Shown piece after piece: positions 2,681 through 63,630 of a stretch of DNA of 64,000 bases. The notes beneath the pieces were generated by a model, which did not search any database, was not told the DNA's origin, and worked only from the letters and a program-made list of their open reading frames with translations. Both the position numbers and the translations under genes were made by a program. The stretch is from Eledone cirrhosa (lineage: Eukaryota): assembly GCA_964016885.1 (NCBI GenBank), contig OZ024745.1:119474001-119538000 (forward strand), written 5' to 3'. Positions within the stretch are counted from its first letter, which is position 1; each line of letters starts with the position of its first letter.

Positions 2681-3257
<577 letters not shown>

Positions 3258-8367: not shown

Positions 8368-8389
8368 TATATATATATATATAAATATA

Positions 8390-9698
8390 TAGTATAAAAA
8401 AACGAAAAATCAGTGATGCGTGTTACAATTGTTTCGCCGGCAGGTAGCTCGAGACATGATCACTGTATGGATCTGGCTGATTCTACGGCTGCAGGTTCCT
8501 TCGGCCACATGCAATTCTTTCGGAGCAAATTTTTTCACTGGGGTGTTATCGTCAAAAAAACACTTTCAAAAAACCTCTTCCACTCTTGTCATGACATTGG
8601 CTGTTGTTTTTCTACGTCATCATAAGTTCTGGTCACTATTTACTGCTGCAGTGGTCATCAGCCATGTTCCGTCCGATACACTTCAATGGAGCCATGCTGG
8701 GTTTGGTATCTCACACGTCTGCTCACACTCCCGAGTATGACCCACATATACACACACACACATACACACGCACAGGCACACACACATGCATGCATACACA
8801 TATGTACTCATACATGTGTAGACACACACACACACTCTCACTCTCTGACACATACACACACACACACTCTCCCTCTCTGACACATACGCAAGCACACCCA
8901 CACCCACATATCGACCACCACATGCCTATTGGCGCCTGCCTAAACAGCCCCTTACATCCGGTTTCACACGCATGCATACTCGCCCACACGCGCAGACACA
9001 CACACGAGCACATCTGCACATATATACACAAACACTCTCAGGCACATACATAGATACACACACGCACACACACGCATTTCCTTATGGATAGGCATCAGGG
9101 ACAGACACACTTCCAAAGACATAAGCACACATACACACGCATACACACATCTGTACATATATCTACACACAAGTACATGTACCCGCATATAAACACATAA
9201 ACAAACCCTGTCTTACGTCGGTGTACGTACGCACCCACACCCACTCACACCCACTGACAGACACACACACCATGTGTGTGTGTCTATGTACACACACATA
9301 TATATATATGGTGTGTGTATGGCTGATGACCAGTGTAGCAGTAAATACTGACCAAGAACTTATGATGACGTAGAAAAACAACAGCCAATGGCATGACAAG
9401 AGTGGAAGAGGTTTTTTGAAGGTGTTTTTTGACGATAACACCCAGTGAGAAAATTTGCTCCGAAAGTAGTGCATGTGTCCGAGGGAACCTGCAGTCGTAG
9501 AATCAGCCAGATCCATACAGTGATCATGTCTCGAGCTACCTGCCGGCGAAACAATTGTAACACGCAATAAACTGTGTCCAGATGCATCACTGATTTTTCG
9601 TTGTTTTATACTATTCACACTCTGTTCCTGTATGAATATTGAGTGCTAATTTTGGCATACCGCCTATGGAAGCACCATAGCTACCATTATACACACGT
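8390..9698 (+). mobile_element. Fold-back element E: about 280-bp inverted arms around a CA-rich spacer, (TA)n both sides
   Basis: Arms 8390-8665 / 9319-9613; ORFs 8413..8625(+) and 9163..9618(-) give the same peptide. Contains GAAACAATTGTA (9548-9559). Confidence 0.75.
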
Positions 9699-10000: not shown

Positions 10001-11887
10001 TATATTCTTGTACAGATGCATTTGCATACATAAAAACAAAATATAAACAAACTATTTATTTCACGAAAGCACAAAATGTAGACACCATGCCGAGGCCGAG
10101 GTATTCCGTACTTCTCTGTACTGTTTCAGAAAGGAGATATAAACATGCCAATCTATGTTTAGAATCCCGAATAACGCCGGGCCATTCTGCTAGTCTTTTC
10201 TATTATGTAAATATCTTTGAGCTAAACTCAAATTTGACAATACTCTTCTCATTTTGAAATATGTATTCTTATGTTCAGGTGCTAAAGTCTTATTTTAATG
10301 GTGTATGGTTTCACTTTGAAATGACATATCGTTATTTAGAATTACAAGTAATATAATATCCTTCTATATTATGCACAGACTATGCAAAGGCTAAAGTTTA
10401 AATAACATTGTGTAACAATACTTGGCATTATATAACAATATATAATACATACAAAACAAGACTTCTGGTGATCTAAACAATATTAGTACTAAACATAACT
10501 GGAAAAATAAGCATAAATACTCTGGGATTATGAAACTGGTTTCTAAGCAAAATCTGTCGTTATCATTCAAAAGATTTATGTATATGTGGAATATTATAGC
10601 AATGAACGCGAAACAAAAACGTAATAGAAATACACATACTAACAGCGTTCTGAAATATCTGCATAGATTTTAATTCGAGAAAAGAGTTTGGACAGAGATA
10701 GTACAATGGACCTTTGAATATTTTATTCAAATGACTCATAAATCACTAATATGATATCGCAAGGCGCGGGTTTAAAAACATTAATACAAGTCGTGTTTTT
10801 AATACGTTTGGATGAGACACTTTCATACGCATGCCCTCACTCTTGTCTAGACTGTAAAGTCTGTGTGATGCCAGGAGGTTTATCAAGGCGGTGTTTATCC
10901 TGGTTTCATGGCGTGAAACGACTGAGAGTACATACTGTTCCTGGATAGAACGCCAATCCATCGCAGGGTCAAACTCTCACCTATTGGTGGTAATCATTTT
11001 TCAGTTGAGTATATTAGAGTAACGTGAAATGAAGTGTTTTGCTCAAGAACACAACACACAACACAGCGCAGGAATCGAACCCACGTCATTCTGATTGTAA
11101 GGTTACGCGCCCCACAGGCACACACACGTACGACCCCCCCCCCCCACACAGTTACAATTGGCTCCCCATAAAAAACATAAAATTTAGGTCATTGTGGCAA
11201 GATTACCAAAGAAAAGTATAATGATGGGATGACCTCAACATATTCAGACTGTTTTCTACCCAAAGCTACAATGATCACTATATCATTTGCAGTATGTGGA
11301 AAATATACCATTAGACTCCTCACATGATGTAATGAAAAGTCACTCAAAATTGGAACACGTTCAATACGTATGAAGCTACATTGAGGAATAATATGTTTAC
11401 ATGTTCAATCAAACATCATCCCAAAATAAATCAAAGAGGAAAGAAATCTAGTAATCTTCAGCCTCATACTTCCTGGAGAAATTCCACCGAAATAGAAGAG
11501 GAATTTTTGTTAGGCTTATTGTAAATATAAAGGCCGCATTTTGGAAGAGTCGTTAGAACATTGGATAGAATGCTTTATGGTATTCGATCCGGCTCTCTGC
11601 TCTGTGTTCAATTCCCGCCGAGGTCAACTTTACATTTCATCCTTTCGAGGTCGATATAAAAGTACCAGTCTAGTACTGGCGTCGTTTCTTCCTGTATATA
11701 TCTGTCTTATTTCCTCACTCTCATTATCTATCTTTCTCTGAAAGAAATCTGCAGTACATGGGCCTGGAAAGGGATGGCTCCACTAGACTTAAAATGCCCC
11801 CAAAATGCCCTATGTCAATACGGCGCCTTTACAACTTCAGAAGTTGCGGGACCATACATATATACAACTGTGAACATATATATATAT

Positions 11888-11970
<83 letters not shown>

Positions 11971-11973
<3 letters not shown>

Positions 11974-12630
11974 TATAAAGTATGTCCATAGAATCATTTG
12001 ATAAGATATATACACCATTTCCTCTCCCAATCAGCATAATCAACCACGCAAAGAACCAAGTAAACCAGGCTCCCCATAAAAGGCACATATGAAGAAATAA
12101 TAGATAAATAAACGACACCCATCTATTCGCGATCAACAGCTATAGAATATTTACCCACCATTTCAATAGCACGTGGAAATCGTGAGCTTGTTTCCTAATG
12201 ATTTCGAAGCTCGAGAATTTATTCTTGATCGGATATTTCCAAAAGCGAATGAAACTCCAAGGGGTAGAAACGTAATCCTGGTATGTTTATATAATTTTTT
12301 CTTCTAACTTTAAGTTTATACCTAATTGTGTATGGTTGACGATATATTTAAACGATTTCCACGTGCTATTGAAATGCTGGGTAAATATTCTATAGCTGTT
12401 GATCGCGAATAGATGGCTGTCGTTTATTTATCTATTATTTCTTCATAGATGCCTTTTAATCTTATAGCCTGGTTTAATTGTTTTTTTTTGTGTGGTTGAT
12501 TATGCTGATTGGGAGAGGAAATGGTGTATATATCTTATCAAATGATTCTATGGACATACTTTATAGTATATTGCTCTGATTATTTAATTAATTAATTCAT
12601 CATTGAGACACATCGTGAATGGTTGCCAAA

Positions 12631-12634
<4 letters not shown>
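11971..12634 (+). mobile_element. Fold-back element F: about 213-bp inverted arms, about 170-bp spacer, (TA)n both sides
   Basis: Arms 11971-12183 / 12353-12568, then a unique tail to (TA)n. No convincing HHR seen. Confidence 0.75.
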
Positions 12635-12693
<59 letters not shown>

Positions 12694-12719: not shown

Positions 12720-12768
<49 letters not shown>

Positions 12769-12826
12769 TAGCCGGCGCGGACTGGAGTCGAATTCTGTCG
12801 ATCGATTGGTTATTGATTAGCCGAAA

Positions 12827-12936
12827 CCAGCTGATGAAGGCACATACGCCAATTATGCATTGTTGCATAATATATGCGGACAGAGTGTGCAGTGCACTCT
12901 ACTGCTGCATTAAGTGTGGCCGAAACTCGAGTTCGG
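12827..12936 (+). ncRNA. Candidate hammerhead with 84-nt branched stem II, in an island between (TA)n tracts
   Basis: ccag CTGATGA aggcacat...gtgtggcc GAAA ctcgag TT cggg; palindromic helix III ACTCGAGT. Stem I is weak (3 of 4 pairs). Confidence 0.55.
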
Positions 12937-13077
12937 GAATATTGAAGGTACCCGTTTACATGCGTTGTATTGAAGTGAATAACTATGTGTATACTCTGGG
13001 AGCTTGGTTAACATTACCTATTGAGTACGCTGAGATGCAACCCATCCTAGCAGTGATACATGTGCTAGTTCCGTCAA

Positions 13078-13108
<31 letters not shown>

Positions 13109-13111
<3 letters not shown>

Positions 13112-13520
13112 GGAGGTGAGTTTTATTGTAGTACAATAAAGCAATGCAGATATCGGATAAGAAGCACTCTACAGTTTGTAGGACTGGAGTATACATAATA
13201 TAAGATCAAAAGATGGTTAAAGGAGTTCCATGTATTTTATTATGCGCATTTCAAAAACAAACATCATCATGCAATAATATTTGTGTTTTCATCAGATAAA
13301 ACAGGAGAACATGATATGAAGGCTAAAAAACACTTGTGGATAGTGCAGTTTTAAATCAACATGTTGATTTAAAACTGCACTATCCACAAGTGTTTTTTAG
13401 CCTTCATATCATGTTCTCCTGTTTTATCTGATGAAAACACAAATATTATTGCATGATGATGTTTGTTTTTGAAATGCGCATAATAAAATACATGGAACTC
13501 CTTTAACCATCTTTTGATCT

Positions 13521-13528
<8 letters not shown>
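13109..13528 (-). mobile_element. Fold-back element G: 334-bp spacerless palindrome plus unique tail, (TA)n both sides
   Basis: Palindrome 13195-13528 centred on caaca|tgttg (13361/13362). Confidence 0.85.
13422..13488 (+). ncRNA. Type-I hammerhead ribozyme motif (mirror copy on - strand at 13235-13301)
   Basis: ttttat CTGATGA [16-bp stem II with G-U pairs] GAAA tgcgca TA ataaaa; palindromic helix III ATGCGCAT; AUA cleavage triplet. Confidence 0.85.
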
Positions 13529-13558
<30 letters not shown>

Positions 13559-14052: not shown

Positions 14053-14058
<6 letters not shown>

Positions 14059-14460
14059 GGAAAAAATGAAACGAATTTTCATTTCCCACTCTTAGTACGG
14101 CTGTTACTTAAATATAAGTATGTACACATATTTAAGTAACAGCCGTACTAAGAGTGGGAAATGAAATTTCGTTTCATTTTTTCCGTTTATTGTTTTCGGT
14201 GCACCCGGCCGATTAACCCACTCGATATGCAAATTGGGCTACTCAGCCGTTAATATGCATAAGGTAAGTATATACGTTCAAACAATCTGGCAGGAATGTA
14301 TACGTTGCTGACGATAGCTAATAAGCTTGAAACTAGTACAGCGTTCCTTTGTCAGTGTTGAACAAACGAGCAACGATGGTTGCTAGACACTACGGATTAA
14401 TACGGGATGTTTGTTTACAAACACACCGAGCATTATAATAAATCTTCGGTGAATCCATAC
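14053..14460 (+). mobile_element. Fold-back element H, between (TA)n tracts
   Basis: Arms 14053-14115 / 14128-14190 with a 12-nt loop. The long arm continues through an HHR to (TA)n. Confidence 0.8.
14302..14344 (+). ncRNA. Minimal type-I hammerhead ribozyme motif
   Basis: acgttg CTGACGA tagc taataa gctt GAAA ctag TA cagcgt; 6-bp stem I; palindromic helix III ACTAGT; GUA triplet. Confidence 0.88.
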
Positions 14461-63194: not shown

Positions 63195-63630
63195 AGTTTA
63201 AAGAATAGAGGTGTAACACGCAAGTTATTATATATTGGTAAACGGAATAGAAAATGCTGACAAATTGTTCACAGTTGAAAAATGGTTTAATTAGGAATAA
63301 AAGAGTATTAGTGATTGTATGGGTTAGTATTCAGTTGTGGTTTTAAGTTTTTAAGTTTTTACCGGTTGCGCATTTCTAAATGCTTTTCAAAAATAATTTT
63401 GAGATAGAGTGTCCGTGCTGTTTGCTCAGATCAGAGCAAACAGCACGGACACTCTATCACAAAATTATTTTTGAAAAGCATTTAGAAATGCGCAACCGGT
63501 AAAAACTTAAAAACTTAAAACCACAACTGAATACTAACCCATACAATCACTAATACTCTTTTATTCCTAATTAAACCATTTTTCAACTGTGAACAATTTG
63601 TCAGCATTTTCTATTCCGTTTACCAATATA
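63195..63630 (-). mobile_element. Fold-back element K: 400-bp near-perfect spacerless palindrome plus short tail, (TA)n both sides
   Basis: Palindrome 63231-63630 centred 63430/63431 (tttgctcaga|tcagagcaaa), with about 2 mismatches. Confidence 0.88.

What the first reader, a model, noticed from the sequence alone, without database searches (positions are those of the whole stretch)
13195..13528. 334-bp apparently perfect spacerless palindrome carrying two mirror-image intact hammerheads
Seen: I found no mismatch between the arms, and a complete HHR lies at 13422-13488 (+) with its mirror on the - strand. Established: long perfect palindromes extrude cruciforms and are unstable. Inference: a very recent insertion, so the system may be active. 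Any read-through transcript forms 167 bp of dsRNA that sequesters the ribozyme and would be an ADAR or Dicer substrate, which is notable if the host is a heavily RNA-editing cephalopod.
Basis: partly seen in the sequence, partly recalled or inferred. Interest (0 to 1): 0.7.

Follow-up and report, generated by a model that had tools for sequence, protein, structure and literature searches.

The report
Head-to-head stub of Penelope-like retrotransposon
This perfect mirror-image stretch is real but common: it is one of well over a thousand head-to-head stubs left by a Penelope-like jumping gene in a mollusc (likely cephalopod) genome, a known layout, and the copies suggest each stub is likely built at its landing site from two DNA copies of the start of one capped RNA.

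Summary
The palindrome is real: two 167-bp arms, no mismatch, no spacer, a type I hammerhead motif in each. The insertion is larger than reported: 13109-13528, in a (TA)n tract, with an 86-nt tail on one arm only. The arm is the pseudo-LTR of an autonomous Penelope-like element (PLE) with Hydra-clade motifs. It is not rare: 15,180 hits for the ribozyme end, 1,690 head-to-head joints at this spot, 49 with this exact centre; 35 of 84 sampled joints have perfect arms. The layout is published (PMC3846280, PMC8557442, PMC4209133), and this scan has noted it before in other genomes and elsewhere in this one. What the copies add: joints pile up at one base (17 and 13 at control spots), that base is often preceded by an extra G (2,111 vs 570 A), the arms share subfamily letters, and no sampled pair has two tails. 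Best reading: two primings on one capped sense RNA, both run to its 5' end and are joined. 'Very recent', activity, expression, editing and polymorphism are untested. The host has cephalopod-type haemocyanin.

The parts
13109..13528 (.). Whole insertion (about 420 bp; ends uncertain by a few bases in TA): tail + pLTR stub + inverted pLTR stub of a Hydra-type Penelope-like element
   Evidence: BLAST to a long genomic copy L046: 98.8% for both arms; same layout in 81 of 84 sampled joints
13195..13361 (-). Left arm: pLTR stub in element sense on the - strand, continuing into the tail
13362..13528 (+). Right arm: tail-less pLTR stub, ends in a TA-like stretch against (TA)n
13109..13194 (-). 86-nt one-sided tail; in tandem copies it runs on into the 5' leader of the ORF
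13358..13365 (.). Head-to-head joint; both arms start 2 nt inside the inferred transcription start and overlap by AT
13422..13488 (+). Type I hammerhead motif, core 13428-13482, self-complementary stem III (dimer type), predicted cut after 13482
13235..13301 (-). Mirror hammerhead motif, core 13295-13241
13166..13190 (-). Small ACTC/GAGT hairpin just inside the tail, a few bases 3' of the tail-less end point
   Evidence: predicted fold; lead from earlier notes e1-9596226 and e1-9542993
13080..13108 (.). Left (TA)n target tract
13529..13554 (.). Right (TA)n target tract; no target-site duplication can be read

Best explanation
The palindrome is a head-to-head pair of pseudo-LTR stubs of an abundant Hydra-type Penelope-like retrotransposon, likely built at the landing site by two primings on one capped sense RNA. 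[quoted passage not shown] Inferred steps: the element is transcribed from an initiator-like start in the upstream pLTR of a tandem copy; the endonuclease nicks both strands of a (TA)n tract; one nick primes at the tail's far end and the other at the tail's near end, both TA-like; both cDNAs run to the 5' cap (often copying it, seen as an extra G); their 3' ends, which finish in self-complementary ATAT, are joined through 2-4 nt of microhomology or short inserts. When the tail-primed copy stalls early the result is an ordinary inversion; when both finish, a spacerless palindrome. The two ribozymes are passengers in the pLTR and would be trapped in the hairpin if the stub were transcribed.
For: Parent ORF with RT and endonuclease motifs between pLTRs; in tandem copies the window's arm plus tail is the stretch upstream of the ORF. 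Joints: 1,690 at this spot vs 17 and 13 at control spots about 40 nt downstream and 30 nt upstream. Of the first 100 ribozyme hits on contig C1, 33 arms start within 16 nt here, 18 at the same base. That base is preceded by G 2,111 times and by A 570 times (G share 0.79 vs 0.36 expected); in 18 of 30 sampled G cases the G is not explained by the partner arm and 0 of 60 are internal variants. An extra G from the cap is described for full-length L1 insertions (PMC11702581, passages), and Penelope has an internal pLTR promoter (PMC2377424, section 14). One tail only: 81 of 84 and 54 of 56, never two. Arms agree at 936 of 959 subfamily-site comparisons vs 605 expected. In 28 joints the tail-less arm is the longer one (15 have a partner that is little more than tail) vs 3 the other way (p about 5e-6). 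A purified PLE protein cuts and extends both strands and starts at two sites bounding the tail (PMC11167929, parts 1-2).
Against: No RNA evidence for the start site or cap. 11 of 30 G cases can be read as partner sequence, 5 of them as the natural C on the other arm. The window's own joint carries no extra G and starts 2 nt inside. Arm agreement could also come from gene conversion within the palindrome. Samples are the first hits on C1 and are selected by exact patterns; a few loci are counted from both arms. A secondary cluster of 139 joints near the ribozyme's stem III/cut site is not explained. Pfam gave no match to the ORF; clade assignment rests on motifs and a by-eye comparison, not on a tree.
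Confidence: 0.72

Rival explanations
1. Self-priming or fold-back: one cDNA (or an antisense RNA, as Arkhipova et al. 2013 proposed) folds back at its end and is copied along itself, giving the second arm.
For: Explains identical arms and centres on self-complementary AT/ATAT. Proposed in print for head-to-head PLE repeats (PMC3846280, passages).
Against: A fold-back on the tail-bearing cDNA cannot make a tail-less arm longer than its template, yet that is seen in 28 of 31 unequal pairs, 15 with a partner that is little more than tail. An antisense template does not predict a G before the sense start, seen on both arms at some joints.
Confidence: 0.13
2. The palindrome is a non-autonomous element of its own (MITE-like or retrozyme-like) that is copied as a whole unit from one or a few founders.
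For: 49 loci share the exact centre; 18 of 36 share one haplotype; the label is slightly clustered on the tree (15 changes vs 19.8 shuffled).
Against: The exact centre occurs on 12 haplotypes, needs 15 changes (at least 7 forced), and is one clade in 0 of 200 bootstrap trees; identical arms carry different joints; joints vary by inserts and overlaps; 14 locus-private letters sit in both arms. No TIR/TSD transposon anatomy: one end has a tail.
Confidence: 0.08
3. Two separate RNAs or two separate events supply the arms, joined at the start site only because both end there.
For: The start-site hotspot and the G would look the same; 23 of 959 site comparisons disagree.
Against: Independent templates predict about 605 agreements, not 936, and pairs with two tails, seen 0 of 84 and 0 of 56 times. 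One dominant source at each time plus gene conversion could mimic part of this.
Confidence: 0.05
4. Sequencing or assembly artefact (fold-back chimeric long reads).
For: No public record spans this locus.
Against: The mirror stops at the element's end, one side has a tail and the flanks differ; the right flank is single-copy; a Logan contig of a public run crosses a head-to-head centre of the family (X1 record 6, 4 differences); 1,690 sister joints share one breakpoint.
Confidence: 0.02

Closest known systems
Inverted 5'-truncated pLTR with one-sided tail in EN+ Penelope-like elements (PMC3846280 passages; PMC8557442 passages; PMC2377424 passages)
   Same: Head-to-head inverted copy at the 5' end, palindrome at the joint, tail on one end only, HHR in the pLTR, initiator-like motif in the pLTR
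   Different: Tail is 86 nt, not 30-40; both arms are cut at one base in at least 1,690 loci; extra G before that base; I found no such census in the papers read
Hydra clade of C-terminal EN+ PLEs, e.g. Hydra-1_Obim of Octopus bimaculoides (PMC8557442 section 11 and supplement)
   Same: DKT, CxCX5C linker, CxxC and CxH in the endonuclease, RW motif, (TA)n target, HHR; RT blocks match by eye; Penelope-13_HM is listed with an inverted copy and a second opposite-strand HHR
   Different: RWT/RWI for RWK; unit about 3.7 kb vs under 3 kb; different HHR (AU/AU stem III base, long stem II); a distinct family
PLE hammerheads of metazoans (PMC4209133, parts 1-2)
   Same: Type I, long helix II, palindromic helix III, dimer type; the paper reports dual HHRs 100-700 bp apart on opposite strands
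   Different: A-U instead of G-C at 10.1-11.1; a pyrimidine mismatch at stem II pair 4 kept in 14 of 14 sister motifs
Poseidon of Anolis, in vitro (PMC11167929, parts 1-2)
   Same: Both strands cut and extended, two internal RT starts bounding the tail, AT-rich target, ribozyme not required
   Different: Other clade; in vitro only; in the parts read, head-to-head joining and cap copying are not addressed
L1 twin priming and cap-derived G (PMC11702581, passages)
   Same: Second priming on the same RNA gives an inverted segment; microhomology at the joint; extra G at full-length 5' ends
   Different: L1 segments barely overlap; here both copies can run over the same 167 nt, which gives a palindrome

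Membership tests
EN+ Penelope-like element | Single ORF with RT and C-terminal GIY-YIG endonuclease | tested here: met
   821-codon frame in L046 with FDI.SYY, MG.S..S, YRDD and LIY..YFG motifs; homolog P0011 has a weak GIY-YIG hit, E 0.0012; Pfam gave no hit on the ORFs themselves
EN+ Penelope-like element | Partial tandems forming pLTRs, inverted 5'-truncated copy, one-sided tail | tested here: met
   Tandems in L027, L049, L059, L060; inverted copies in L046, L047, L052; one tail in 81 of 84
EN+ Penelope-like element | Hammerhead motif in the pLTR | tested here: met
   (154 of 160 arms keep all 11 core letters)
EN+ Penelope-like element | RT groups with PLEs on a tree | not tested
   No named reference proteins could be given to the tools; by-eye match to Hydra-1_Obim in the supplement
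Hydra clade | DKT in place of DKG | tested here: met
   SDKT in L046 and L059
Hydra clade | CxCX5C linker, no CX2-5CxxC (Neptune/Nematis) | tested here: met
   4 of 4 frames examined
Hydra clade | CxxC and CxH in the endonuclease; CCHH absent | tested here: met
   CNLC and CLH in 4 of 4 frames; absence of CCHH read by eye from the translations
Hydra clade | RWK motif, no GxKF/Y | tested here: inconclusive
   RWT/RWI at the matching place; no GxKF/Y
Hydra clade | Insertion into (TA)n | tested here: met
   window and flanks printed
Hydra clade | Generally under 3 kb | tested here: not met
   unit about 3.7 kb in L046 because of a long 3' UTR; the paper says 'generally'
Type I hammerhead ribozyme | Core CUGANGA/GAAA/NUH with three stems | tested here: met
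   across 14 sister motifs stem II pairs 1-3, 5, 6 hold in 13-14 of 14 with changes on both sides
Type I hammerhead ribozyme | G10.1-C11.1 pair | tested here: not met
   A-U here; G-C in 2 of 14 sister motifs
Type I hammerhead ribozyme | Rfam hammerhead model match | tested here: not met
Type I hammerhead ribozyme | Self-cleavage | not testable with these tools
   needs an assay; related PLE motifs cut poorly or need the protein (PMC4209133, PMC11167929)
Non-LTR retrozyme | Head-to-tail tandem monomers each with an HHR, no linked ORF | tested here: not met
   head-to-head pair, derived from an ORF-bearing element
MITE (DNA transposon) | Symmetric TIR ends with fixed internal structure | tested here: not met
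   one-sided tail, variable joints, RT parent

The most novel reading that the evidence does not exclude
This family is a natural record, in about 1,700 or more loci, of how Penelope-like elements make head-to-head repeats: two primings at the two ends of the tail on one capped sense RNA, both running off at the cap. That argues against the published antisense self-priming idea and links the two in vitro start sites to the one-sided tail in a living genome. It also maps the element's transcription start from DNA alone and seeds the genome with over a thousand perfect or near-perfect 165-bp hairpins.
Probability: 0.6. Interest if true: 0.5.

Novelty: new member of a known kind. Interest (0 to 1): 0.27.

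Why it matters
The locus itself is ordinary debris of a common jumping gene. The family is useful because the way Penelope-like elements build inverted repeats and one-sided tails is still open (PMC8557442 and PMC11167929 say so). The sharp start site, the extra G, the one-tail rule and the arm-length bias give testable predictions. If some stubs lie in transcribed introns or UTRs they would be strong double-stranded RNA in an editing-rich animal, but nothing here shows that.

Tried and rejected
DNA search of the own genome with the arm returned nothing, even at its own site, because common words are skipped; patterns were used instead. Whole-window inverted-repeat search was swamped by TA repeats. 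Rfam: no hammerhead hit. Pfam and PDB sequence searches with the ORF: no significant hit. No RNA holder listed, which says nothing on expression. Read laying: no record spans the locus, the unique right flank is covered only in sample S1 (apart from one short piece in X7) and contigs stop at the TA tracts, so polymorphism and empty alleles could not be judged. The right flank has one match in the assembly, so there is no empty haplotig. One search's junction table had an offset error and was discarded; one search replaces it (only its base-composition line is used). Editing signature in genomic copies: arm differences A>G 7, T>C 16, G>A 16, C>T 14 of 102; T>C vs A>G p 0.30; no signal. Ribozyme-cut templates: 139 joints near the cut site (degenerate pattern), more than controls but many centre on the stem III palindrome or other microhomology; inconclusive. 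Neptune clade, first considered, rejected on the linker and DKT motifs. Rows dropped: 7 of 91 joints with under 140 aligned columns, 11 of 91; 7 of the 49 exact-centre loci were not fetched. Literature searches that found no paper on twin priming or strong-stop copies in PLEs: 'Penelope-like, twin priming, inverted' (2 unrelated listings) and 'Penelope, retrotransposon, strong-stop, inverted repeat' (1 unrelated listing); some searches gave the papers cited. Subscription papers (e.g. Arkhipova 2006, Evgen'ev and Arkhipova 2005) were not searchable and may hold similar models.

Full report
Observation. The window holds an exact palindrome at 13195-13528: 167 of 167 pairs, no spacer, centre 13361|13362. 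Each arm has a type I hammerhead motif, 13422-13488 on + and 13235-13301 on -, with all core letters, a long stem II and a self-complementary stem III. Rfam has no hammerhead match here, pair 10.1-11.1 is A-U, and the monomer fold is not the predicted minimum; a stem III duplex between two copies is predicted at -10.5 kcal/mol. Among 14 sister motifs picked from the loci held (120 distinct sequences, clustered on stem II), stem II pairs 1-3, 5 and 6 hold in 13 or 14 of 14 with changes on both sides, pair 4 is a pyrimidine mismatch in 14 of 14, and stem III is palindromic in 10 of 14. Stem I and stem III were partly fixed by the search patterns; stem II was not. So the motif is a real conserved hammerhead-type structure; cleavage is untested.

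What it belongs to. The window lies in a 3.0-Gb genome. A 29-nt piece of the ribozyme end has 15,180 exact hits, many in outward-facing pairs. [quoted passage not shown] The motifs DKT, CxCX5C, CxxC and CxH and the (TA)n target match the Hydra clade as defined in PMC8557442 (section 11); RT blocks match Hydra-1_Obim by eye (supplement). Pfam did not recognise the ORF and no tree was built. The real insertion is 13109-13528: the left arm runs on into an 86-nt tail, the right arm stops at the TA tract. In tandem copies the arm plus tail is the stretch directly upstream of the ORF leader. The family also occurs at high identity (pieces with 0-10 differences in 60-115 nt) in runs of three other organism labels; that concerns the family, not this locus.

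How common. The exact centre occurs at 49 loci; head-to-head joints with up to 30 nt between the same 15-mers occur at 1,690, against 17 and 13 for control spots on either side and 139 near the ribozyme cut site. I examined 42 of the 49 exact loci and 49 further loci from the first 50 listed; 84 of 91 had enough aligned sequence. Arms are identical in 35 of 84; median divergence within a locus is 0.3-0.6%, between loci 3.2-5.1%; exactly one arm has the tail in 81, none in 3, both in 0. In 80 loci the two arms agree at 936 of 959 subfamily-site comparisons (605 expected if independent); 14 locus-private letters sit in both arms and 50 in one; the exact centre needs 15 changes on the tree and is never one clade in 200 bootstrap trees. 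So the joint forms again and again, from one template each time, and is not mainly copied as a unit.

Why there. Of the first 100 ribozyme hits on C1, 33 arms start within 16 nt of the joint, 18 of them at one A in an initiator-like context (Inr likeness is recalled consensus); 23 start at scattered points in the next 100 nt and 44 were scored further upstream. That A is preceded by G 2,111 times and by A 570 times; the natural base is C. G share is 0.79 against 0.36 from window composition. In the first 30 G cases, 18 are not explained by the partner arm, 11 are, 1 has no partner; for A the numbers are 12, 15, 3; none of the 60 is an internal variant. An extra G at full-length L1 5' ends is read as the copied cap (PMC11702581, passages), and Penelope is transcribed from an internal pLTR promoter (PMC2377424, section 14 and passages). 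I infer that the hotspot is the capped 5' end of the RNA. The window's own joint starts 2 nt inside it and has no G.

How the pair forms. Among 60 arms that start at that base, 56 have a visible partner; 54 pairs have one tail, 2 none, 0 two. In 28 the tail-less arm is full length and the tail-bearing partner shorter (15 little more than the tail); only 3 are the reverse (p about 5e-6; a few loci enter from both arms). A fold-back on the tail-bearing cDNA cannot give this. Two primings on one RNA can: both end points are TA-like, and a purified PLE protein cuts and extends both strands and starts at two sites bounding the tail (PMC11167929, parts 1-2 of 4). The published alternative is self-priming on an antisense template (PMC3846280, passages). 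The twin-priming steps are inferred from copy anatomy, not observed.

Young: yes, one arm is identical to an arm at 13 of 79 other loci. Very recent: not shown, since 0 of 167 bounds divergence at 1.8% and gene conversion could erase differences. Active: an unbroken frame exists (L046), but no polymorphism or RNA could be tested. Sequestration: predicted; in either direction the ribozyme lies in the second arm, and the hairpin beats the ribozyme fold by about 110 kcal/mol. Cephalopod: 39 hits to molluscan haemocyanin; one unit scores 659 and 650 bits against 4yd9_C and 1js8_A, 460 and 372 against 8tnv_A and 1lnl_A; that the first two are squid and octopus and the last two gastropods is recalled, as is that seven units per gene is the octopod type. 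No A-to-G excess is seen between arms.

Novelty. Inverted pLTRs with a one-sided tail are described as typical (PMC8557442 passages; PMC3846280), and dual opposite-strand hammerheads 100-700 bp apart were reported in 2014 (PMC4209133, parts 1-2 of 4). Part 1 of 5 of bioRxiv 10.64898/2026.07.22.740005 covers tandem retrozymes, a different layout; its supplements were closed. This scan has 144 earlier notes with the same key words in at least 23 genomes, some already proposing double priming; none matched this sequence or place. My searches found no paper on twin priming or strong-stop copies in PLEs, but subscription papers were out of reach. Verdict: a new family member of a known kind; the locus is ordinary, the family is a decent dataset for an open mechanistic question. 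Interest 0.27.

Noticed in passing
window 12767-13079 (+), core 12831-12933: A second, unrelated hammerhead-bearing repeat (long branched stem II, palindromic stem III) ends at the TA tract into which the palindrome inserted; likely the pLTR of another PLE family.
   Followed up: partly
window 58487-58443 (-) and 48454-48496 (+): Further hammerhead motifs; the first resembles sister motifs of this family.
   Followed up: no
window 45121-47210 (+) and 48207-48418 (+): Broken copies of related Hydra-type PLE ORFs, 31-60% identical to the parent protein.
   Followed up: no
window 2681-2812, 3059-3196, 14053-14190, 32119-32314, 32389-32525, 32760-32913, 43520-43635, 63381-63480: Many more near-perfect short palindromes; perhaps stubs of other PLE families.
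   Followed up: no
window 11876-12691, 8389-9614, 38603-40358, 42487-43742: Longer inverted repeats with spacers, 82-93% alike.
   Followed up: no
HHR stem II pair 4, window 13438/13467: A pyrimidine-pyrimidine mismatch kept in 14 of 14 otherwise divergent sister hammerheads; may be a tertiary or protein contact.
   Followed up: partly
L046:1618-1636 and window 13166-13190: Small RCTC/GAGY hairpins lie a few bases 3' of each of the two end points, as earlier notes reported for this genome; the second was seen by eye and only partly in the predicted folds.
   Followed up: partly
runs X5, X6, X7 (organisms B, C, D): Nearly identical pieces of the family in other organism labels (e.g. 75 of 75 and 132 of 133 letters); recent shared ancestry, horizontal transfer or contamination not told apart.
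   Followed up: no
G000, pattern: 139 head-to-head joints around ribozyme stem III and the cut site, about eight times the control spots; cause unresolved.
   Followed up: partly
L059 about 1460-1940: The parent's 3' UTR carries a variable 111-nt tandem repeat.
   Followed up: no
window about 18881: Sequence that reads like the RT region of an RTE/CR1-type LINE (recalled resemblance; seen).
   Followed up: no
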